Source of the DNA: a virus
Lineage: Duplodnaviria > Heunggongvirae > Uroviricota > Caudoviricetes
Reading direction: 5' to 3' (one strand)
IMG/VR virus record: IMGVR_UViG_3300022910_000004
DNA length: 64,000 nucleotides
Made by a program: the position numbers and the translations under genes. The notes below the pieces were generated by a model. The model did no database searches. It saw only the letters and a list, made by a program, of their open reading frames with translations, and was not told the DNA's origin. Numbering within the stretch: the stretch's first letter is position 1; each line of letters opens with the position of its first letter. Below, piece after piece: positions 16,985 to 25,119 of this stretch.

Positions 16985-17296
16985 ATGAATGCTTATAAAA
17001 TGTCAATCTCAGAACGTAGAGCACTTCTGGATTCCAGTCTAAAACGTGGGCGTATTGCCAGTATTGCATGGAAAAAAGCTTCTGGTGAGGCTACTAAACG
17101 TAATTTTACGGAAAAGTGTCTTGATGGATTTAGAGATGGTATAGAAAATGCAAAACCTAATCCAGTCAAAGACAAGCCTGAACTCTATACCGCTTGGGAT
17201 TTATCTAAAAGAGATTGGTCAAATGTAAATCTGAACAACTTGATAAGTGTAGCTCTTGATGGGGAGACATGGGAATTTGGGGCAGAAGATGTCTGA
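16985..17296 (+). CDS. hypothetical protein
   Basis: 103-aa ORF. Confidence 0.45.
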   Translation: MNAYKMSISERRALLDSSLKRGRIASIAWKKASGEATKRNFTEKCLDGFRDGIENAKPNPVKDKPELYTAWDLSKRDWSNVNLNNLISVALDGETWEFGAEDV

Positions 17297-17618
17297 GAAT
17301 CCTTATATTGAAACAGTAATAACTAACACTATTCGTAAGTACAATCCTAATTACGGTGATAATAGGGTTTGTGAATGTGGTCATACTTATGACAGGCATT
17401 TTGATTCATATGAAAATATGAGCCCAGTCGGTTGTAAGTATTGCCCCTGTGGCACTTTCGTAGAGGCGAATCTCATACTTAGGCATACACCTTTTGATAT
17501 TTATCAAGTACCTAATGAGTGCGTATTTGTTCTTGATATTGTGAATTGGATTAATAAGCAAGAGGACAAAGAAGTCTACACTAAACTTTTGGTTGCTTTG
17601 GGTGAGGAGATTTACTAA
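17289..17618 (+). CDS. Cys-rich (zinc-binding?) protein
   Basis: CECGHTYDRH...CKYCPCG. Confidence 0.45.
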   Translation: MSENPYIETVITNTIRKYNPNYGDNRVCECGHTYDRHFDSYENMSPVGCKYCPCGTFVEANLILRHTPFDIYQVPNECVFVLDIVNWINKQEDKEVYTKLLVALGEEIY

Positions 17619-18076
17619 TGCCAGTAGAAATAATTAAGGGTGACCTTCTTGATGCCTTCGATAGAGGTGAAGTTGATATAATTGGCCATGTAGTAAATTG
17701 TCAAAGTGTGATGGGATCAGGAATTGCTTTAGCTATTAAGAATCGTTACCCAAATGTTTATAAAAGTTATTTAGATTCATTCCCAGAAGCATTGAAAGAG
17801 GGTGTGACAAAAGACTTAATGCTTGGTCACGTTGAAGTTATTGATGGTGTTGCAAATATGTATGCCCAATTTAAATACGGGGCAGACAAGCGGCATTTAA
17901 ATTATGGAGCTATATCTCAATGTCTTTCGAGTCTGGCTATGTATGGAGATAAGAGTTACATCTTTGGCTTTCCTTATAAAATGGGTTGTGATCGAGCTGG
18001 TGGGGATTGGTCTGTTGTTTTAGAAATGATAGAATATTACTTTAACGATGTTAGAGTTAAAATCTATGAACTATAA
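17618..18076 (+). CDS. macro-domain protein, TARG1/OARD1/DarG-like (ADP-ribose binding or hydrolase)
   Basis: IIGHVVNCQSVMGSGIALAIK matches the HxxNxxxxMGAGIA macro-domain signature. Confidence 0.65.
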   Translation: MPVEIIKGDLLDAFDRGEVDIIGHVVNCQSVMGSGIALAIKNRYPNVYKSYLDSFPEALKEGVTKDLMLGHVEVIDGVANMYAQFKYGADKRHLNYGAISQCLSSLAMYGDKSYIFGFPYKMGCDRAGGDWSVVLEMIEYYFNDVRVKIYEL

Positions 18077-18737
18077 ACTCTATCAAATGTCTCCATCCAT
18101 CTTCGTTGTTGAAATGGATAATGCCGAAGATCTTGCACATACATTTTTAAGAGTGCAGGAATTTTATGAAAGTGAGAATGATGATTTCAGAGAAGGCGTT
18201 TTTACCATTGAAGAGTACAAGAAGTGGTATTGTACTCAAAGTTATGATGGGACATTTAGCTATGCCAAAGATTGGGTCGGATTTAATATCCATTCAAGTG
18301 TAATTGAACGGTGTTATGCTTGTTCCAGAGAATTCACTAAAGATGATATTTTCTTTTTAAGCATTTGTGCCAGCATAAAGAACCAAATAGGGGATAATGG
18401 ATACTATTTGTGTGGTATTAAAACATGTGATAAAGAAACTTTAGACCATGAGTTGGCTCATGCGCTGTTTAGTACTAATTTAGAATATCGACAAGTAATG
18501 ATTGATGCAGTGTTAGCAATAGATCGTTTGAATTTAGATGTTATTTTCACTACCTTACAAGATGAGGGATATTCGTTTTCTGTTGTTATAGATGAAACAC
18601 AGGCACATTTAAGTACTGGTCTGGTGAATATCCCAGAAACAGAGTATTTGTTAGGGTTAAGAAAACAATTTAGCAGTATCTTCAATAAGTTTATAAAAGA
18701 ACTTGGAGATCCTATATTAATAATGAGAGGAGCATAA
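18066..18737 (+). CDS. HExxH zincin-like protein (SprT/DUF45-like metallopeptidase?)
   Basis: DHELAHALF motif; several Cys; start ambiguous (18048, 18066 or 18087). Confidence 0.4.
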   Translation: MNYKLYQMSPSIFVVEMDNAEDLAHTFLRVQEFYESENDDFREGVFTIEEYKKWYCTQSYDGTFSYAKDWVGFNIHSSVIERCYACSREFTKDDIFFLSICASIKNQIGDNGYYLCGIKTCDKETLDHELAHALFSTNLEYRQVMIDAVLAIDRLNLDVIFTTLQDEGYSFSVVIDETQAHLSTGLVNIPETEYLLGLRKQFSSIFNKFIKELGDPILIMRGA

Positions 18738-18741
18738 TTTA

Positions 18742-18999
18742 ATGAATAAGGCACTAATTTTAATGATGATTACTCTTTGTCTTGTAGGCTGTGGAGACAA
18801 GTCTTATACAGATGATAGTGAAAATTATAAATTACCACCAGAACTCTCTGCATGTAAAGTTTACTATCTAGGTCAAGGCGGACTGCAAACAGGAATAACA
18901 GTAGTGCATTGCCCAAGAGCAGATACTACAACGTCTTATACACAGTCTTGTGGAAAAGGTTGCACAAGACATATTAATACTACAGTGGCGAGCTATTAA
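18742..18999 (+). CDS. lipoprotein
   Basis: lipobox LVGC. Confidence 0.5.
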   Translation: MNKALILMMITLCLVGCGDKSYTDDSENYKLPPELSACKVYYLGQGGLQTGITVVHCPRADTTTSYTQSCGKGCTRHINTTVASY

Positions 19000-19000
19000 T

Positions 19001-19948
19001 ATGAATTTAATTATGAAATGCCTATTCGGTAGCCACCTTTATGGTTTGAACACACCCACTTCAGATAAAGACTATAAAGGAATCTATTTGCCAGACAAAG
19101 ACAATTTGTTGCTTGGAAATTATGCCAAGCATTATTCTGAATCTACAGGTAATGATAAGACTAAGAATACTAAAGATGATATTGACGTGGAGATATTTTC
19201 TCTTCCCTATTTTATAGAACTTGCCTGTAAAGGCGAGACTGTAGCTTTGGATATGCTTCATGCAAGAGAGGAAATGTTTGAGTCTAATATTGGTGAAATA
19301 TGGTGGGAGCTAAAAAATAGACGTAAGATGTTCTACACCAAAGATATGAAGTCCTATATTGGCTATGCTCGTAAGCAGGCTAATAAGTACGGTATCAAAG
19401 GTAGTCGTATGGGGTCTGTTGAAGGAGCTATGAAAGCTTTAGCTAAACTAACACCCAATTGGAAATTGAGTCAGGTTTGGGACAACTTGCCCACAGATGA
19501 GTTTTTAATAAAAGTTACTATGAATGATAAATCCTCTGCAAAACCTTTAAATTTTTATGAGGTATGTGGCCGAAAGTACCAAGACACTTTATTTGTTTAC
19601 CAAGCTTATGAGCTTATAGAGGGGATCTATAAAGAGTATGGGGATAGGGCTAGACAAGCTAAGAATGATGAGGGCGTGGATTGGAAAGCTGTTAGTCATG
19701 CACTAAGGGCTTCTTACCAAATGCTTGGTATTTTGAATGATGGAGATTTTGAATATCCTCTCCCCCAAACAGAATTTTTGTTGGCGGTAAAAACAGGGCA
19801 GCTTAACTTTGTAAATGAAGTTCAGCCAGAATTAGATTCTCTTATCGTTAAGATCGAAAAGATGTCAGCGGAAAGTAGTTTACCAAATAAAGTTGACAGG
19901 AATTATTGGGATCAATGGTTATTAAATGTTTATAGAGAATATCTTTAG
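19001..19948 (+). CDS. Pol-beta-fold nucleotidyltransferase (unknown substrate)
   Basis: GSHLYGLNTPTSDKDYKG (GS...[DE]x[DE]) plus downstream DIDVE; start placed at the ATG following the stop of the lipoprotein gene. Confidence 0.5.
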   Translation: MNLIMKCLFGSHLYGLNTPTSDKDYKGIYLPDKDNLLLGNYAKHYSESTGNDKTKNTKDDIDVEIFSLPYFIELACKGETVALDMLHAREEMFESNIGEIWWELKNRRKMFYTKDMKSYIGYARKQANKYGIKGSRMGSVEGAMKALAKLTPNWKLSQVWDNLPTDEFLIKVTMNDKSSAKPLNFYEVCGRKYQDTLFVYQAYELIEGIYKEYGDRARQAKNDEGVDWKAVSHALRASYQMLGILNDGDFEYPLPQTEFLLAVKTGQLNFVNEVQPELDSLIVKIEKMSAESSLPNKVDRNYWDQWLLNVYREYL

Positions 19949-19957
19949 GAGAAAACA

Positions 19958-20830
19958 ATGACAATACAATTATTCATAGATGGGGTAGAAGTTCCTGTAA
20001 AAAAGATTAAATTTTCTGATGGGGGATCTAATGTAAAATTAGAAGTTCCTGAAGGATTATCTCCAAGAAGATACATATGCATTACAGTTGACCCAATTAC
20101 ACCCGCAGATAACTATTTGTGGGAAATCGGTTTGGTTATGTATGCTTTGGAGGTATTGTTTCCAGATTACGAAACAAAGACTATTATAAATTTACCATAT
20201 CTACCTCACGGCAGAGCAGATAGAGTGTTTGAAAGAGGTAATCCATGCCCTCTAGAATGTTTCTTTGATGAATTCCTTTGTTGGGAATTAGATAATATTG
20301 AGATTCATTTAACTGATCCGCATAGTGACTTTTATAAAAATTATGCAGATAATCTCGCTTTTGAAGTGAAAGAGCAGTACCAATGTTTTAGAGATACAGT
20401 TTTTGGATTCCAGTCTGGAGATTATTTAATAAGTCCTGATAAGGGGGCCAAGACTAAGATTCATCAACTTCAACAGTACTTAGATTCTCGCTGGGTGGCT
20501 TCATTTGTTGTTGAGGCGGAAAAAGTGAGAGATCCATCCAACGGTAAAATATTAGAAACTACTTTACCTGAAGGTATTGATCTTACTAATAAGGTATGTT
20601 ATATTGTCGATGACATTTGTGATGGAGGTGGAACATTCATCCCTCTCGCTGAGAAGCTTAAAGAAGCTGGAGCAAAAGAAGTTCATTTGTACGTCACTCA
20701 TGGCATATTCGCTAAAGGTTTGGATTTGTTTAAAGGTAAAATAGATAAGCTTCATGTATACCAAATAGTAAGTAATTATGTTACAATGATTGATATTATG
20801 AACTTTAATCAGGGGAAAGAGGTAAAATGA
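19958..20830 (+). CDS. ribose-phosphate pyrophosphokinase homolog (Prs-like; candidate ADPR-PP synthetase of NARP1 type)
   Basis: PRPP-binding loop YIVDDICDGGGT; divergent N-terminus lacking canonical Prs motifs. Confidence 0.65.
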   Translation: MTIQLFIDGVEVPVKKIKFSDGGSNVKLEVPEGLSPRRYICITVDPITPADNYLWEIGLVMYALEVLFPDYETKTIINLPYLPHGRADRVFERGNPCPLECFFDEFLCWELDNIEIHLTDPHSDFYKNYADNLAFEVKEQYQCFRDTVFGFQSGDYLISPDKGAKTKIHQLQQYLDSRWVASFVVEAEKVRDPSNGKILETTLPEGIDLTNKVCYIVDDICDGGGTFIPLAEKLKEAGAKEVHLYVTHGIFAKGLDLFKGKIDKLHVYQIVSNYVTMIDIMNFNQGKEVK

Positions 20831-21105
20831 TTATGTTTAGCGATCACTGCCAAAAATGTGGACACAGCCTAGAGTGTATGGCCGGTGAATCTGCACACCC
20901 CTCTAATTGGTATTGTCCAAACAAGAATTGTGAGAAAGACGCTCAAGAACTTAAGATAAAATATCTTAAAAGTAAACGAGATCACCTAATTGATGAAGCA
21001 CAGAAGGCAGCACATGCCTACTTCGTTGAGTGTGATATTGGGAAGGAGCGTGAAAAGGCTGGCGAGATATATGAAAATATCCGTACTGCTGGAAGAGTTT
21101 ATTAA
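20827..21105 (+). CDS. zinc-ribbon protein
   Basis: CQKCGH...CPNKNC. Confidence 0.45.
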   Translation: MIMFSDHCQKCGHSLECMAGESAHPSNWYCPNKNCEKDAQELKIKYLKSKRDHLIDEAQKAAHAYFVECDIGKEREKAGEIYENIRTAGRVY

Positions 21106-21136
21106 CAATTAAGTAAATTTATATTAGGAGATAATT

Positions 21137-22858
21137 ATGCCATTAGCACAAACAGATAGTTATAAGCTTTCACACAAAGGGTTTATGAATAAAGGTACAA
21201 CTAAGCTTTATTCAAATATGACCGCCCGTTCTGGCAAACATTTCCCCGTCCTGCAAGATCGTTGGGATGGTAAAGTAGTAGTATTTGGATTTCAAAAGTT
21301 TGTCATTGAATTCCTGATTAATGAGTGGAACAGTAAGTTCTTTCAAATGCCTAAACATAAGGCTATTAAGAAATTCAAACGCCTTGTAGATGCTTACCTT
21401 GGTAAAGATGCTGTTGATATGGCACACTTCGAAGCTTTGCATGATATTGGTTATTTACCTTTGCACATCAAGTCTATTGATGAAGGTAATCGTGTAAATA
21501 TTAAAGTTCCTTTGTGGACTATTACAAATACTCATCCAGATTTTGCATGGTTAGTGAACTATCTCGAAACTGTGATGTCTTGTGAGTGCTGGAAACCAAT
21601 TACCACAGCTACGATTATCTCTGAATATCGTAAACTGATTAATGAATATGCACTAAAGACCACTGGCAGCTTAATGGGCACACAGTTCCAGATTCATGGT
21701 TTTGAATTCCGTGGAATGGCAAATCGTCAAGATGCAGCAAGCTGTGCAGCCGGAATGTGCTTATCTACAAATGGTACAGATACAATTCCAGCTTTAGAAT
21801 TAATTGAAGAGTACTACTTCACTGATATTGAGAAGTACTTTGTGGCAACTTCTGTGCCAGCAAGCGAACACTCTATTGCGTGTCTTGGAACTGCTGTACA
21901 AGGTGAATTAGAATCCTATCGTAAATGGATTACTGTAGACTATCCTACTGGCATTGTAAGCTTGGTAAGCGATACCTACGATTATTGGAAAGTACTAACA
22001 GAGTATCTCCCAATTCTTAAGCCCGATATTCTTGCTCGTCCAGTTAATGAGATTGGTTTGAGTAAAGTAGTTATTCGTCCTGATTCTGGTAACCCTGCGG
22101 ATATTATTTGTGGAGATGTTTTCACAGATTTAACTAAAGACTGTAAAGATTTTGACACTTTCAAACGTTGGGCGTTAGAAATCATTCGGGAAGAAGTGGG
22201 AGATGATACTCCTCATGGAGAGTGTGGTGAATGTAACCCAAACAAAATCTTCAAATGGCAAGATAAGTACTATGATGTACATGCAGAAATTGAATGGAAT
22301 CGTTATGATAAACAATACTATTATATGGAGGACGAACGCATCACTAGTGTGGAAGAAATTGAACTTACACCAGAACAAAAAGGCTCTGTAGAACTCCTCT
22401 GGGAGACCTTTGGAGGCACTGTAACAGAGCAGGGATACAAAGTATTAGACAGTCACATAGGATTGATCTATGGTGATTCTATTACACTTAAAGTGGCTTT
22501 AGATGTAATGGAACGATTAGCAGCCAAAGGATTTGCCTCAACAAACATAGTGTTTGGTGTAGGCAGTTATACAATGCAGTATCTAACTCGTGATAGCTTA
22601 GGTATGGCAGTTAAAGCCACCTATGGCGAAGTTGATGGTGTTGGTTATGAGTTGTTTAAAGATCCAATTACTGATAGCGGTATGAAGAAGTCAGCAAAAG
22701 GATTGTTACGTGTGGAAAAAGAGGGAGATGATTACGTTCTATATGATCAGCAAACTCTAGAGCAAGAGGCTACAGGGGAATTAACTTCTCTGTTTTTGAA
22801 TGGGAAATTGATGAAACAAACTACATTCGAAGAATGTCGTAATCGTCTTTGGAAATAA
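21137..22858 (+). CDS. nadV: nicotinamide phosphoribosyltransferase family protein (NadV/Nampt-like; candidate Namat)
   Basis: 573 aa; type-II PRTase RPDSGNPADI motif; adjacent to Prs-like gene. Confidence 0.75.
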   Translation: MPLAQTDSYKLSHKGFMNKGTTKLYSNMTARSGKHFPVLQDRWDGKVVVFGFQKFVIEFLINEWNSKFFQMPKHKAIKKFKRLVDAYLGKDAVDMAHFEALHDIGYLPLHIKSIDEGNRVNIKVPLWTITNTHPDFAWLVNYLETVMSCECWKPITTATIISEYRKLINEYALKTTGSLMGTQFQIHGFEFRGMANRQDAASCAAGMCLSTNGTDTIPALELIEEYYFTDIEKYFVATSVPASEHSIACLGTAVQGELESYRKWITVDYPTGIVSLVSDTYDYWKVLTEYLPILKPDILARPVNEIGLSKVVIRPDSGNPADIICGDVFTDLTKDCKDFDTFKRWALEIIREEVGDDTPHGECGECNPNKIFKWQDKYYDVHAEIEWNRYDKQYYYMEDERITSVEEIELTPEQKGSVELLWETFGGTVTEQGYKVLDSHIGLIYGDSITLKVALDVMERLAAKGFASTNIVFGVGSYTMQYLTRDSLGMAVKATYGEVDGVGYELFKDPITDSGMKKSAKGLLRVEKEGDDYVLYDQQTLEQEATGELTSLFLNGKLMKQTTFEECRNRLWK

Positions 22859-22879
22859 TTAAATATCGGGAGTAGTAAA

Positions 22880-23101
22880 ATGGGACTTAATGTTTTTGGT
22901 AAATTGCTAACTGTGGATGATGCTATCTCTTCTTTACAAAAGACAGTAGATAAGCTGAAAGATGTTATTGGCGTTCGTGATAATGCTATAACAGAAAACA
23001 CAGCTAAAGTGGCCGACCTTCAGAGGGAAGTTGCAGAACATCAATCTGAAAAGGAAAGAGCCCAAGCAATTTTAGAAAAATTAACTAATTTGTTAAGTTG
23101 A
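22880..23101 (+). CDS. coiled-coil protein
   Basis: 73-aa heptad-rich ORF. Confidence 0.4.
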   Translation: MGLNVFGKLLTVDDAISSLQKTVDKLKDVIGVRDNAITENTAKVADLQREVAEHQSEKERAQAILEKLTNLLS

Positions 23102-23111
23102 GGAGATAATT

Positions 23112-23327
23112 GTGGTGGACCCTGTTGAAATAAAAGCCTCTAGGGATAGGGTTGCCAGAAGACTAGAGCGACTTAACTCTTTAAAAGATAAGATAGAAAA
23201 TAGACACTCTGGAAGAGAAATTTGGTTTACCTACCATGCTGGTTGGGATCTTGGATATCTTAAAGGGCAAATCTCTATTTTAGAGGAAATGGAAGATTTG
23301 CTCAATGATCTTGTTAGAGATAGTTAA
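23112..23327 (+). CDS. hypothetical protein (GTG start)
   Basis: GAGGAG RBS then GTG. Confidence 0.4.
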   Translation: MVDPVEIKASRDRVARRLERLNSLKDKIENRHSGREIWFTYHAGWDLGYLKGQISILEEMEDLLNDLVRDS

Positions 23328-23343: not shown

Positions 23344-23373
23344 TAGACAAAGCTTAAGTAAAGGTGTTATAAT
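23344..23373 (+). promoter_or_regulatory. extended -10 promoter candidate (TAGACA-18-TGtTATAAT)
   Basis: TGnTATAAT at 23365-23373. Confidence 0.4.
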
Positions 23374-23404: not shown

Positions 23405-24289
23405 ATGAATGAACAATCCGTATCAAAACTTGCTAAATGGGGAATTATTTCTATTATAGCAATTATTGTGCTCGCTGTGTTAAGTCCATTTAACACTGTC
23501 CCCACTGGTACTCGTGGTGTAGTAACTCAGTTTGGTGCTATTAAAGGTATTGAACAAGAGGGTTTAGTAATCCTACCTCCTTGGCAAAAACTCTCTGTAT
23601 TCAATACACGAGCAGAAGAAGCCACTATCGAGAAGGCTGTAGGGGCTACAAGTGATACACAACCAGTATTTGTTAGTCTTACTGTACGCTATAATGTCTT
23701 CCCAGACCGTGTAGCAGAAGTATATGAGAAATACTCTCGTGATGGAGACTTGTCTTCATATGTACAGACAGCAACTGCTGAAGTATTTAAGGCAGTAACA
23801 GCCAAATACACTGCACCAGACCTTATTAGTCAACGTGCAAAAGTATCAACTGATATTGTAGAAGCTTTGTCTAAGAAACTGTCTTTATATGGTGCAAACG
23901 TAATAAACGTTGATATGCGTAACTTTGAGTTTTCTGCCACTTATATGACAGCAATTAATCAAAAGGTTACTCAAGAGCAATTACGATTAGTAGCAGAGAA
24001 TCAACTGAAGACGGTGGAAGCAGAGCAAAAGCAGAAAGTTGCTATTGCTGAAGCAGAAGCTAATGCCGCTCGTGCAAAGGCTGATGGTGAATCTTACGCT
24101 AACTTAAAGATTGCATCAGCTCAAGCTGAAGCACTACGAATTCAGAATGCTGCATTAGCTCAAAATAAAGATGTGTTAGAGCTTCGTCGTATTGAAGTAG
24201 AAATGAAAAAAGCTGAAAATTGGAATGGTGCCCTACCACAAAATATTTATGCTGGTGCCCCAATTCCCTTTATGAACTTTCCTAAATAA
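23405..24289 (+). CDS. SPFH/band-7 (prohibitin/HflKC-like) membrane protein
   Basis: N-terminal TM then TGTRGVVTQFGAI...LPPW core; Ala/Glu-rich coiled coil at C-terminus. Confidence 0.65.
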   Translation: MNEQSVSKLAKWGIISIIAIIVLAVLSPFNTVPTGTRGVVTQFGAIKGIEQEGLVILPPWQKLSVFNTRAEEATIEKAVGATSDTQPVFVSLTVRYNVFPDRVAEVYEKYSRDGDLSSYVQTATAEVFKAVTAKYTAPDLISQRAKVSTDIVEALSKKLSLYGANVINVDMRNFEFSATYMTAINQKVTQEQLRLVAENQLKTVEAEQKQKVAIAEAEANAARAKADGESYANLKIASAQAEALRIQNAALAQNKDVLELRRIEVEMKKAENWNGALPQNIYAGAPIPFMNFPK

Positions 24290-24334: not shown

Positions 24335-24362
24335 GATGCTTCGTAAGAGGCATCATTTTTAA
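24335..24362 (+). terminator. putative terminator
   Basis: GATGCTTC...GAGGCATC imperfect hairpin then ATTTTTA. Confidence 0.35.
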
Positions 24363-24408: not shown

Positions 24409-25119
24409 ATGGCAAATAGTCTTGGCGATAGAATGAAGGGTTATGAACATGTTAATCGTAACTTCTTGATTAAAAGAATGCCTGTGGTTATCCGTTTGGA
24501 TGGAAAAGCTTTCCACACTTACACTAAAAACTGTGGAAAGCCTTATGACTCAGATTTGCATATTGTTCGTAAGGCGACTCTGGAACATCTTTGCAAAGAA
24601 ATACAAGGTGTTATTATAGGGTATTCTCAGTCAGATGAGATATCCCTTGTTCTTAAAGACTGGCAGACATTCAACACTTCTGCTTGGTTTAACAATAACA
24701 TCCAGAAAATTTGCAGTGTATCGGCCTCAATGTGTACGATGAGGTGGAATAGTGCAGTTAATTTCATGAACTATGATATTGGGCATATTGTTTTAGAGCC
24801 TTGTGCTATGTTTGACTCAAGAGTGTTCAATCTTCCCAAAGAGGAAGTAGTGAATTATTTAATCTGGAGGCAACAAGATTGGGAACGTAACTCTGTCCAA
24901 ATGTTGGCCCAAAGCTTATACTCTCACAAAGAGTTACAAGGTAAAAGCTGCTCCCAATTGATTACTAAAATCGAAGAGGAATTTAATATTATCTGGGGAA
25001 ATTTTTTGCCTTGGAAAAAGCAAGGTGAAATTTGGTTTGGTGGGAAAACACAAGAGAGTTTTCTTTTTAAGAATAATCGTGTCCTTATTGAGGAAGAACT
25101 TAATTTGGAGTTGAATTGA
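24409..25119 (+). CDS. tRNA-His guanylyltransferase Thg1-like protein (3'-5' nucleotide addition)
   Basis: RLDGKAFH and GYSQSDEISLVL match the Thg1 catalytic core. Confidence 0.7.
   Translation: MANSLGDRMKGYEHVNRNFLIKRMPVVIRLDGKAFHTYTKNCGKPYDSDLHIVRKATLEHLCKEIQGVIIGYSQSDEISLVLKDWQTFNTSAWFNNNIQKICSVSASMCTMRWNSAVNFMNYDIGHIVLEPCAMFDSRVFNLPKEEVVNYLIWRQQDWERNSVQMLAQSLYSHKELQGKSCSQLITKIEEEFNIIWGNFLPWKKQGEIWFGGKTQESFLFKNNRVLIEEELNLELN

What the first reader, a model, noticed from the sequence alone, without database searches (positions are those of the whole stretch)
17618..22858. Contiguous ADP-ribose/NAD+ island: TARG1-like macro - HExxH protein - lipoprotein - nucleotidyltransferase - Prs-like - Zn-ribbon - Nampt-like
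A Prs homolog with only the PRPP-binding loop conserved, next to a 573-aa Nampt-family enzyme, fits the two-enzyme NAD+ reconstitution pathway (Adps plus Namat, NARP1-type) reported for phages that overcome NAD+-depleting defences. A classical NadV + Prs salvage pair is the alternative. Here it is physically extended by a DarG/TARG1-like macro domain (ADP-ribose removal), an HExxH metallopeptidase-like protein, a Pol-beta-fold NTase and a small Zn-ribbon protein, all co-oriented and tightly spaced. Taken together this looks like a composite module for clearing ADP-ribose adducts or signals and rebuilding NAD+. The macro + NTase + HExxH extension is, to my knowledge, not described.
Basis: partly seen in the sequence, partly recalled or inferred. 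Interest (0 to 1): 0.75.

Follow-up and report, generated by a model that had tools for sequence, protein, structure and literature searches.

The report
Phage NAD+ rebuilding operon, interrupted
This stretch of a marine phage genome carries a recently described three-enzyme kit (macro-domain phosphatase, Adps, Namat) that rebuilds NAD+ after bacterial defences destroy it. The four other genes sitting among them look like unrelated passengers, not parts of a larger new machine.

Summary
All seven ORFs exist at the stated coordinates. The Prs-like and Nampt-like proteins are Adps and Namat of NARP1, not ordinary Prs/NadV salvage enzymes.
- The Nampt-like protein matches the solved SpβL1 Namat far better than cellular Nampt. 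It has the Namat adenine-clamp motif (GSYTMQYLTRD).
- The Prs-like protein falls below NCBI's Prs cut-off, as validated Gary Adps does. It keeps 13 of 19 mapped ICP1 Adps substrate/catalytic residues, with two more conservatively replaced.

The macro protein's closest phage relatives (42-44% identity) are NARP1-adjacent macros already catalogued as Adpp, the ADPR-1''-phosphate phosphatase of "NARP1-AP" (Osterman et al., bioRxiv January 2026). It lacks the TARG1/DarG catalytic lysine and aspartate. So the macro extension is already described.

The rest of the proposed extension is not conserved with NARP1.
- The NTase is a T4 NrdC.11-type RlaP, an RNA 3'-end repair family, found in about 1,500 phage records, at least 217 of which cannot carry Adps by the counts.
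- The HExxH protein belongs to a large unannotated zincin-like family, never next to NARP1 in 12 other contexts.
- The lipoprotein lies elsewhere in the one Felixounavirus genome examined.
- The Zn-ribbon protein is an ORFan.

Co-orientation and tight spacing extend well beyond the island. Verdict: a new, interrupted member of a known system. Interest is low to moderate.

The parts
17618..18076 (+). Adpp-like macro-domain protein (predicted ADPR-1''-phosphate phosphatase), 152 aa
   Evidence: phrog_335 'phosphatase' 1.6e-41. The best phage hits, at 42-44% identity, are macros inside or next to NARP1 operons of Vibrio phages 1.063.O, K354 and 184E37 and Rheinheimera phage Barba19A. Those macros are listed as NARP1-associated in Table S1 of Osterman 2026. 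It is 28-29% identical to validated Gary Adpp, and the mutated His24 is conserved. TARG1/DarG catalytic Lys is replaced by Gln84, and TARG1 D125 by Ala127.
19958..20830 (+). Adps (ADP-ribose pyrophosphokinase, Prs-like), 290 aa
   Evidence: phrog_619 5e-62. It scores 76.4 bits against TIGR01251, below the 113-bit cut-off, as does validated Gary Adps at 99.9 bits. 13 of the 19 mapped ICP1 Adps residues are identical (F19, R86, F91, H122, D161, K189, I198, D218, D219, I220, C221, D222, F227). V195 to L199 and S220 to T226 are conservative. C197 to T201, A218 to G224, A219 to G225 and F223 to P229 differ. Gary K192, whose mutation abolishes function, corresponds to K189.
21137..22858 (+). Namat (nicotinamide ADP-ribose transferase, Nampt-like), 573 aa, with an 85-aa lineage-variable insert (about 22114-22378)
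   Evidence: Best PDB matches are SpβL1 Namat 9W5X/9W5W at 3.7e-131, against about 1e-57 for human NAMPT. The selectivity-clamp helix motif GSxΦxΦxΦTRD is present as GSYTMQYLTRD with aromatics at positions 3 and 7. Xanthomonas Nampt has GGALLQKVDRD. The catalytic His (Gary H243) is conserved in SEHSIAC. The insert is variable among Namats and is swapped in the near-identical relative.
18048..18737 (+). HExxH zincin-like protein of unknown function, 229 aa. Probable insertion, not part of NARP1-AP.
18742..18999 (+). Small lipoprotein, 85 aa. Probable passenger gene.
   Evidence: Lipobox LVGC is visible in the sequence. phrog_902 4e-9. Homologues occur in 556 phage records, many of them Felixounavirus and Vibrio phages. 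In the one Felixounavirus examined, phage JH2, it lies between the DNA polymerase and DNA ligase genes, not beside NARP1.
19001..19948 (+). RlaP-family (T4 NrdC.11-type) Pol-beta nucleotidyltransferase, 315 aa. Probable RNA-repair gene, not part of NARP1-AP.
   Evidence: PF10127 1.3e-12 and phrog_388 3e-98. It is about 44% identical to homologues in 1,517 phage records, mostly T4-like. The two homologue loci inspected (L008, L011) hold no Adps or Namat homologue. Cellular RlaP adds 1-2 NMP to RNA 3' ends, and T4 NrdC.11 is a named family member. It is absent from 9 other NARP1 loci.
20827..21105 (+). Cys4 Zn-ribbon ORFan, 92 aa, between Adps and Namat
   Evidence: Among 5.8 billion proteins the only match is the 100%-identical copy, which comes from the same phage lineage. 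It has no Pfam or PHROG hit. The same slot holds HNH endonucleases or Adpp in other phages.

Best explanation
The functional unit is a NARP1-AP anti-defence pathway split by insertions.

When a host defence destroys NAD+, the phage rebuilds it in three steps:
1. The macro protein (Adpp) removes the 1''-phosphate from ADPR-1''-phosphate, the product of RES-type (aRES) NADases. This yields ADPR.
2. Adps transfers pyrophosphate from ATP to ADPR, giving ADPR-PP.
3. Namat joins ADPR-PP to nicotinamide, giving NAD+.

Against ordinary NADases (TIR, SIR2, DSR and similar) steps 2 and 3 suffice.

The ancestral layout was probably macro-Adps-Namat, as in Rheinheimera phage Barba19A. The HExxH protein, lipoprotein and RlaP NTase were later inserted between macro and Adps, and a Zn-ribbon ORFan between Adps and Namat. 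These four genes most likely act independently. The NTase probably works in RNA/tRNA 3'-end repair.

The enzymatic steps are shown for homologues in the literature. Here they are inferred from homology, motif and residue conservation, and gene neighbourhood.
For: Namat:
- PDB 9W5X at 3.7e-131, against about 1e-57 for human Nampt.
- Clamp motif present.
- Catalytic His conserved.

Adps:
- Below the Prs cut-off, like validated Adps.
- 13 of the 19 mapped ICP1 residues identical, including catalytic K185 (window K189). Two more are conservatively replaced.

Macro:
- The nearest relatives are NARP1-embedded macros catalogued as Adpp.
- His24 conserved.
- The pathway is validated for Vibrio phage Gary.

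Co-inheritance:
- All three proteins have close relatives in a shared set of phages. Barba19A gives 42/46/62% identity for macro/Adps/Namat. Vibrio 1.063.O and K354/184E37 are also among the best hits.
- This fits the three genes travelling as a module.

Insertions:
- The Adps-Namat slot holds HNH endonucleases in H101 and 1.063.O.
- A 97%-identical relative carries one more small ORF between the NTase and Adps.
- No homologue of the four extra genes occurs in 9 other NARP1 loci.
- Interrupted NARP1 operons are already tabulated.
Against: - No biochemistry was done on these proteins.
- The macro is only 28-29% identical to the one tested Adpp. It belongs to a subclade (motif PFKMGCDRAGG) that has not itself been assayed.
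- Homologous macros occur in many phage records without NARP1. There are 1,804 macro records against 1,300 Adps records, and 654 against 178 for Escherichia phages. Family membership alone therefore does not prove the Adpp role.
- The macro lies 4 genes upstream of Adps. That is outside the ±2-gene window used to define NARP1-AP.
- The seven genes may be co-transcribed. No convincing internal terminator was found, but the scan has no power.
Confidence: 0.8

Rival explanations
1. All seven genes form one composite ADP-ribose/NAD+ module. The HExxH protein and/or the NTase would act as extra feeder or processing enzymes for NARP1. This would be analogous to Adpp and to the RyR-domain glycosidase RyDEP.
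For: There is precedent: NARP1 neighbours can be feeder enzymes, as with Adpp and RyDEP. The seven genes are contiguous and overlapping. The order is kept in one near-identical relative. Some HExxH homologues sit next to MazG, NUDIX or Nuc_deoxyri_tr2 genes.
Against: - None of the four extra genes has a homologue in 9 other NARP1 loci.
- None of 12 other HExxH contexts holds Adps, Namat, macro or RlaP genes.
- The RlaP NTase occurs in about 1,500 phage records. Counts for Escherichia and Klebsiella phages show most of those lack Adps, and the family has a demonstrated RNA substrate.
- The one Felixounavirus examined places the lipoprotein elsewhere.
- The only relative that keeps the order is 97% identical, so it is not independent evidence.
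- Tight packing is genome-wide.
Confidence: 0.07
2. The pair is ordinary salvage. The Prs-like enzyme makes PRPP and the Nampt-like enzyme makes NMN, as a NadV-type route.
For: The Nampt-like protein passes NCBIfam NF006629, 'nicotinate phosphoribosyltransferase', at 489 bits against a 405-bit cut-off. Namat keeps some NAM-PRPP activity in vitro according to a section heading in PMC12774641.
Against: - Validated Gary Namat passes the same model, so the model does not discriminate.
- The adenine-clamp motif is present, whereas Xanthomonas Nampt lacks it.
- The match to solved Namat is far better than to Nampt.
- The Prs-like protein is below the Prs cut-off and carries Adps-type donor-loop residues, DDICD...TF.
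- No NMN adenylyltransferase was seen among the annotated ORFs of the window.
Confidence: 0.04
3. The macro protein works independently of NARP1 as an ADP-ribosyl hydrolase. It might reverse DarT-type DNA ADP-ribosylation or protein ADP-ribosylation. Alternatively it might clear Appr-1''-p produced during RNA repair. In either case its position near NARP1 would be incidental.
For: - Its best NCBIfam hit is DarG, at 49 bits.
- The profile matches SCO6735, DarG and TARG1 structures better than Poa1p.
- Homologous macros occur in many phage records lacking NARP1.
- RNA-repair-type genes are nearby: the RlaP NTase and Thg1.
Against: - The DarG hit is far below the 250-bit cut-off, and validated Gary Adpp gives the same weak hit.
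- The TARG1/DarG catalytic Lys and TARG1 Asp are not conserved.
- The closest relatives are all NARP1-embedded.
- The macro, Adps and Namat share a set of closest-relative phages.
Confidence: 0.12

Closest known systems
NARP1-AP (Adps + Adpp macro phosphatase + Namat) of Vibrio phage Gary; Osterman et al., bioRxiv 10.64898/2026.01.28.702374
   Same: The same three protein families are present. The residues whose mutation abolishes function in Gary are conserved: Adps K192 (window K189), Namat H243 and Adpp H24. The macro's nearest relatives are in that paper's Table S1.
   Different: Gene order is macro ... Adps ... Namat rather than Adps-Adpp-Namat. The macro lies 4 genes (1.9 kb) upstream of Adps, outside the paper's ±2-gene criterion. 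Four unrelated genes are interspersed. The macro is only 28-29% identical to Gary Adpp and belongs to a different, untested subclade.
NARP1 (Adps + Namat) of SpβL1, Bas63 and ICP1; Osterman et al. 2024; structures in PMC12774641 and PMC13586617
   Same: The Namat clamp motif and catalytic core are present. The Adps acceptor and donor residues are largely conserved.
   Different: Namat carries an 85-aa insert that is absent from SpβL1 Namat. A Zn-ribbon ORFan separates the two genes.
macro-Adps-Namat operon of Rheinheimera phage vB_RspM_Barba19A
   Same: This is the closest overall relative of the three core proteins, at 42%, 46% and 62% identity. The order, with the macro upstream, is the same.
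   Different: In Barba19A the three genes abut, with no intervening genes. Its Namat lacks the insert.
TARG1/OARD1 and DarG macrodomains
   Same: They share the macrodomain subclass. The profile E-values are 3e-14 for TARG1 and 2.5e-16 for 5M3I. I identify 5M3I as the M. tuberculosis DarG macrodomain from memory.
   Different: The catalytic Lys (TARG1 K84) is an invariant Gln, and TARG1 D125 is Ala. There is no DarG C-terminal domain and no DarT partner.
RlaP / T4 NrdC.11 nucleotidyltransferases (PF10127); Carruthers et al., bioRxiv 10.64898/2025.12.29.696909
   Same: The NTase matches PF10127 above its cut-off and is about 44% identical to T4-like phage homologues.
   Different: No RNA ligase gene is adjacent here. 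The phage clade (cluster 5 in that paper) has not been assayed.

Membership tests
Namat (NARP1) | [quoted passage not shown] | tested here: met
   The window has GSYTMQYLTRD. SpβL1 Namat has GSFTYQYNTRD. Xanthomonas Nampt has GGALLQKVDRD.
Namat (NARP1) | Closer to solved Namat than to Nampt | tested here: met
   9W5X/9W5W at 3.7e-131, against about 1e-57 for human NAMPT and 2e-49 for Xanthomonas Nampt.
Namat (NARP1) | An Adps homologue in the immediate vicinity | tested here: met
   Adps ends 307 nt upstream, with one small ORF between.
Namat (NARP1) | Makes NAD+ from ADPR-PP plus nicotinamide | not testable with these tools
   Needs an enzyme assay.
Adps (NARP1) | Prs-like fold that falls outside canonical ribose-phosphate diphosphokinase | tested here: met
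   TIGR01251 gives 76.4 bits against a 113-bit cut-off. Validated Gary Adps gives 99.9 bits, also below.
Adps (NARP1) | ICP1 Adps substrate and catalytic residues: F18, R87, F92, H121, D161, K185, D212, D213, C215, D216, S220, F221 | tested here: met
   The window has F19, R86, F91, H122, D161, K189, D218, D219, C221, D222, T226 and F227. A218/A219 become G224/G225 and F223 becomes P229, as in Barba19A.
Adps (NARP1) | A Namat homologue within ten genes (true of 97% of the Adps clade) | tested here: met
   Namat is two genes downstream.
Adpp (NARP1-AP) | Macro-domain protein within two genes of a NARP1 system (the paper's operational definition) | tested here: not met
   The macro is four genes upstream of Adps. 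Its closest homologues do meet the criterion.
Adpp (NARP1-AP) | Homology to catalogued or validated Adpp with the mutated His24 conserved | tested here: met
   42-44% identity to Table S1 macros and 28-29% to Gary Adpp. His24 is invariant in the 8-sequence alignment.
Adpp (NARP1-AP) | Dephosphorylates ADPR-1''-phosphate to ADPR | not testable with these tools
   Needs an enzyme assay. The profile reaches Poa1p at 4e-11.
TARG1/DarG-type ADP-ribosyl hydrolase | Catalytic lysine (TARG1 K84, DarG equivalent) and TARG1 D125 | tested here: not met
   These positions align to the invariant Gln84 and to Ala127. The DarG NCBIfam model gives 49 bits against a 250-bit cut-off. The identity of the TARG1 catalytic residues is from my own knowledge.
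RlaP NTase (PF10127) | Match to the Pfam model above the gathering score | tested here: met
   48.3 bits against a 23-bit cut-off, and phrog_388 at 3e-98.
RlaP NTase (PF10127) | Adjacent RNA ligase or RNA-repair operon | tested here: not met
   No RNA ligase was found among the neighbouring ORFs. A Thg1-like gene lies 4.5 kb downstream and an ATP-dependent ligase 4.2 kb upstream.
Zincin metallopeptidase (e.g. M34 ATLF-like / SprT-like) | HExxH plus a downstream third ligand, and a significant match to a curated family or fold | tested here: inconclusive

The most novel reading that the evidence does not exclude
The HExxH zincin-like protein belongs to a large, entirely unannotated family (at least 2,800 clusters). 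This protein and/or the NrdC.11-type RlaP NTase may have been recruited into this lineage's NARP1-AP operon as further accessory enzymes. They could, for example, release or process additional ADPR-derived substrates, or counter a host factor that targets the pathway. That would make this a third kind of extended NARP1, after Adpp and RyDEP.
Probability: 0.07. Interest if true: 0.7.

Novelty: new member of a known kind. Interest (0 to 1): 0.27.

Why it matters
The finding adds a divergent marine-phage example of NARP1-AP. It shows that the macro phosphatase can be separated from Adps and Namat by inserted genes. Neighbourhood rules such as 'within two genes' therefore under-count this counter-defence.

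It also flags an untested Adpp subclade (motif PFKMGCDRAGG). That subclade is shared with phages of Vibrio and Rheinheimera, so RES-type NAD+ depletion may be a relevant pressure in marine hosts.

The proposed new biology, a macro + HExxH + NTase composite, is not supported.

Tried and rejected
- A megablast of the island against INPHARED found no match. The phage has only protein-level relatives there.
- Promoter and terminator scans were at shuffle expectation and could not define transcription units.
- The word-indexed protein search suggested the HExxH family was tiny, with 11 hits. The exhaustive profile search overturned this, with 2,808 clusters.
- Pfam on HExxH family members and on longer fused forms gave nothing.
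- The afdb50 fold library was unavailable. The BFVD search gave only one uncharacterised Megaviridae match.
- I tested whether NTases recur next to NARP1. Shewanella phage 1/40 gp99 and ICP1 ORF223 are nearby Pol-beta NTases. They are not homologous to each other or to the window NTase, so I rejected this as a conserved feature.
- I looked for a RyR/RyDEP domain among the island and flanking proteins and found none.
- I considered a lipoprotein-NARP1 link because the lipoprotein is common in Felixounavirus, the genus of Bas63. I rejected it after inspecting the genome of phage JH2.
- GC and GC3 content of the inserted genes gave no sign of recent foreign origin.

Full report
**Observation.** The seven co-oriented ORFs are real and lie at the stated coordinates:
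- macro, 17618-18076
- HExxH protein, 18048-18737
- lipoprotein, 18742-18999
- Pol-beta NTase (ORF from GTG 18950; the homology-supported ATG is at 19001; ends 19948)
- Prs-like, 19958-20830
- Cys4 Zn-ribbon, 20827-21105
- Nampt-like, 21137-22858

Profile searches confirm the family calls:
- The macro is phrog_335 'phosphatase' at 1.6e-41.
- The NTase is RlaP/PF10127 at 1.3e-12 and phrog_388 at 3e-98.
- The Prs-like protein is phrog_619 at 5e-62.
- The Nampt-like protein is phrog_448 at 1.7e-176.
- The HExxH and Zn-ribbon proteins match nothing.

First, 35 of the 36 ORFs of at least 120 aa from position 1 to about 47.5 kb are on the + strand. Second, gaps of 31 nt or less run from 16985 to 23327, across 12 genes. 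Orientation and spacing therefore do not delimit an island. GC content is uniform, and promoter/terminator scans are at chance level.

**Context.** The window is the early/middle region of a phage. It holds DNA ligase, primase-helicase, DNA polymerase, RNR, thymidylate synthase, dNMP kinase and MazG-like genes, followed by tail and baseplate genes on the other strand. Its DNA polymerase is 50-55% identical to those of 130-140-kb marine Vibrio and Shewanella phages. One IMG/VR contig (3300005577_000040) is about 97% identical over this region. No INPHARED genome matches at the DNA level.

**The core is NARP1.** The Nampt-like protein matches the crystal structures of SpβL1 Namat (9W5X/9W5W; identified) at 3.7e-131. 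Human NAMPT scores about 1e-57.

The structural paper defines a Namat-specific selectivity-clamp helix, GSxΦxΦxΦTRD. [quoted passage not shown] The sequences at this site are:
- window: GSYTMQYLTRD
- SpβL1 Namat: GSFTYQYNTRD
- Gary Namat: GSFTYQYVTRD
- Xanthomonas Nampt: GGALLQKVDRD

The catalytic His, whose mutation (H243A) kills Gary Namat, is conserved.

The Prs-like protein scores 76.4 bits on TIGR01251 against a 113-bit cut-off. The validated Gary Adps also falls short, at 99.9 bits. I aligned it with ICP1 Adps, the enzyme whose structures define the mechanism (UniProt F1D1Q1). Of the 19 substrate and catalytic residues mapped, 13 are identical: F19, R86, F91, H122, D161, K189 (the catalytic Lys; Gary K192), I198, D218, D219, I220, C221, D222 and F227. 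Two more are conservative replacements: V195 to L199 and S220 to T226. The remaining four differ: C197 to T201, A218/A219 to G224/G225, and F223 to P229. The classical Prs + NadV salvage alternative is therefore unlikely.

**The macro domain is the described Adpp extension.** Osterman et al. (bioRxiv, January 2026) report that 15% of NARP1 phages carry a Macro protein in the operon. In Vibrio phage Gary this protein (Adpp) dephosphorylates ADPR-1''-phosphate, the product of RES-domain (aRES) NADases, to ADPR. That lets NARP1 overcome aRES. They name the three-gene pathway NARP1-AP.

The window macro's best phage hits sit inside or beside NARP1 operons:
- Adps-HNH-hyp-macro-Namat in Vibrio phage 1.063.O
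- Adps-macro-Namat in Vibrio phages K354 and 184E37
- macro-Adps-Namat in Rheinheimera phage Barba19A

These are 42-44% identical to the window macro, and all are listed in that paper's Table S1. Identity to the assayed Gary Adpp is 28-29%, with the mutated His24 conserved. The window protein belongs to a subclade sharing the motif PFKMGCDRAGG. This subclade has not itself been assayed.

A profile of eight NARP1-linked macros, the window protein among them, gives these matches:

| PDB target | E-value |
|---|---|
| BT1257 | 1e-22 |
| SCO6735 | 7e-21 |
| 5M3I (which I take to be a DarG macrodomain) | 2.5e-16 |
| TARG1 | 3e-14 |
| Poa1p | 4e-11 |

However, the TARG1 K84 / DarG catalytic Lys position is an invariant Gln, and TARG1 D125 is Ala. 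The DarG NCBIfam score is 49 bits against a 250-bit cut-off, and Gary Adpp gives the same weak hit.

One caveat remains. Homologous macros occur in many phage records without NARP1: 1,804 macro records against 1,300 Adps records, and 654 against 178 for Escherichia phages. Here the macro also lies four genes from Adps, outside the paper's ±2-gene rule. What supports linkage is congruence. Macro, Adps and Namat have close relatives in a shared set of phages. Barba19A gives 42%, 46% and 62% identity respectively, and its three genes abut.

**The other four genes are not conserved with NARP1.**

- *NTase.* It is a T4 NrdC.11-type RlaP. Homologues at about 44% identity occur in 1,517 phage records, mostly T4-like. 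The two homologue loci inspected (L008, L011) hold no Adps or Namat homologue, and by the counts most Escherichia and Klebsiella phages with the NTase lack Adps. Cellular RlaPs add one or two NMPs to 3'-OH ends of damaged RNA, and T4 NrdC.11 is a named family member. A Thg1-like tRNA-His guanylyltransferase lies 4.5 kb downstream.

- *Lipoprotein.* It belongs to phrog_902 and occurs in 556 phage records. In the one Felixounavirus examined, phage JH2, it lies between the polymerase and ligase genes.

- *Zn-ribbon protein.* Its only match among 5.8 billion proteins is a 100%-identical copy from the same phage lineage.

None of these four has a homologue in nine other NARP1 loci examined. The NARP1 operon is visibly a site of insertion. 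HNH endonucleases sit between Adps and Namat in H101 and 1.063.O. The 97%-identical relative has one more 88-aa ORF between the NTase and Adps. Small Pol-beta NTases lie upstream of NARP1 in Shewanella phage 1/40 and ICP1. They are not homologous to each other or to the window NTase.

**Mechanism, with shown and inferred steps marked.** These steps are shown in the literature for homologues:
1. aRES converts NAD+ to nicotinamide plus ADPR-1''-P.
2. Adpp converts ADPR-1''-P to ADPR.
3. Adps converts ADPR plus ATP to ADPR-PP plus AMP.
4. Namat converts ADPR-PP plus nicotinamide to NAD+.

NARP1-AP also counters canonical NADases. Assigning these steps to the window proteins is an inference. It rests on homology, motif and residue conservation, and neighbourhood. 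The historical scenario is also inferred: an ancestral macro-Adps-Namat layout later split by insertions.

**Novelty and verdict.** The core finding (NARP1) and its macro extension (NARP1-AP) are both already known. This locus is a new, divergent and interrupted member. The claimed undescribed macro + NTase + HExxH composite is not supported by conservation. The recent discoveries of Adpp and RyDEP as NARP1 feeder enzymes leave it a small residual probability, which I put at about 7%. Interest is low to moderate.

Noticed in passing
window 22114-22378 (Namat aa ~326-413); L004 12347-12488: Namat carries an 85-aa insert rich in aromatic and Cys residues, the longest of nine Namats compared. In the relative's Namat, which is identical over almost all of the rest of its length, an unrelated 47-aa segment replaces it. 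Insert length ranges from 0 to 85 aa across phages. This could reflect cassette-like exchange or diversifying selection at one surface loop.
   Followed up: partly
window 19424-19634 (NTase aa ~140-220): The central segment of the RlaP NTase is strongly diverged from the relative, while both flanks are almost identical. This is a second local mosaic patch.
   Followed up: no
L004 9928-10194: The 97%-identical IMG/VR relative has an extra 88-aa ORF between the NTase and Adps that is absent from the window.
   Followed up: no
window 18048-18737 and P0013-P0158: The HExxH protein represents a large family with no annotation or Pfam model: 2,808 50%-identity clusters, 1,479 of them at E ≤ 1e-30. 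Its model is confident. RNA/tRNA-related genes recur among its neighbours: Thg1 in L026, PTH2 and TROVE in L017, RLIG1 and SpoU in L016, and 2H-SAK in L029.
   Followed up: partly
window 24409-25119 and 23405-24289: There is a Thg1-like tRNA-His guanylyltransferase (PF04446 8e-29). There is also an SPFH/Band-7 protein flanked by the best promoter-like site (23344-23373, 11 of 12 matches) and a terminator-like hairpin (24335-24354).
   Followed up: no
L008 (Klebsiella phage vB_KpM_FBKp34, 35290-46219): An NrdC.11-type RlaP NTase, a macro 'putative phosphatase' and a WGR-domain poly(ADP-ribose) polymerase gene lie within about 6 kb of one another.
   Followed up: no
L012 9402-10955 (phage H101); L013 8865-10448 (Shewanella phage 1/40): The Namat homologues next to Adps in these phages have divergent clamp motifs, GSWGFLDRASRD and GSYANLQNNTRD. 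The published motif may therefore not cover all NARP1 Namats.
   Followed up: no
window 17289-17618: A 109-aa Cys-rich protein (phrog_24688 4e-29) has a stop codon overlapping the macro start codon. It is as tightly coupled to the macro gene as the flagged genes are.
   Followed up: no
L031 26402-26815 (ICP1 ORF223); L013 7292-7984 (Shewanella 1/40 gp99): Small Pol-beta NTases with a GGxxRD...DLD motif lie just upstream of NARP1 in two other phages. They are not detectably homologous to each other or to the window NTase.
   Followed up: yes
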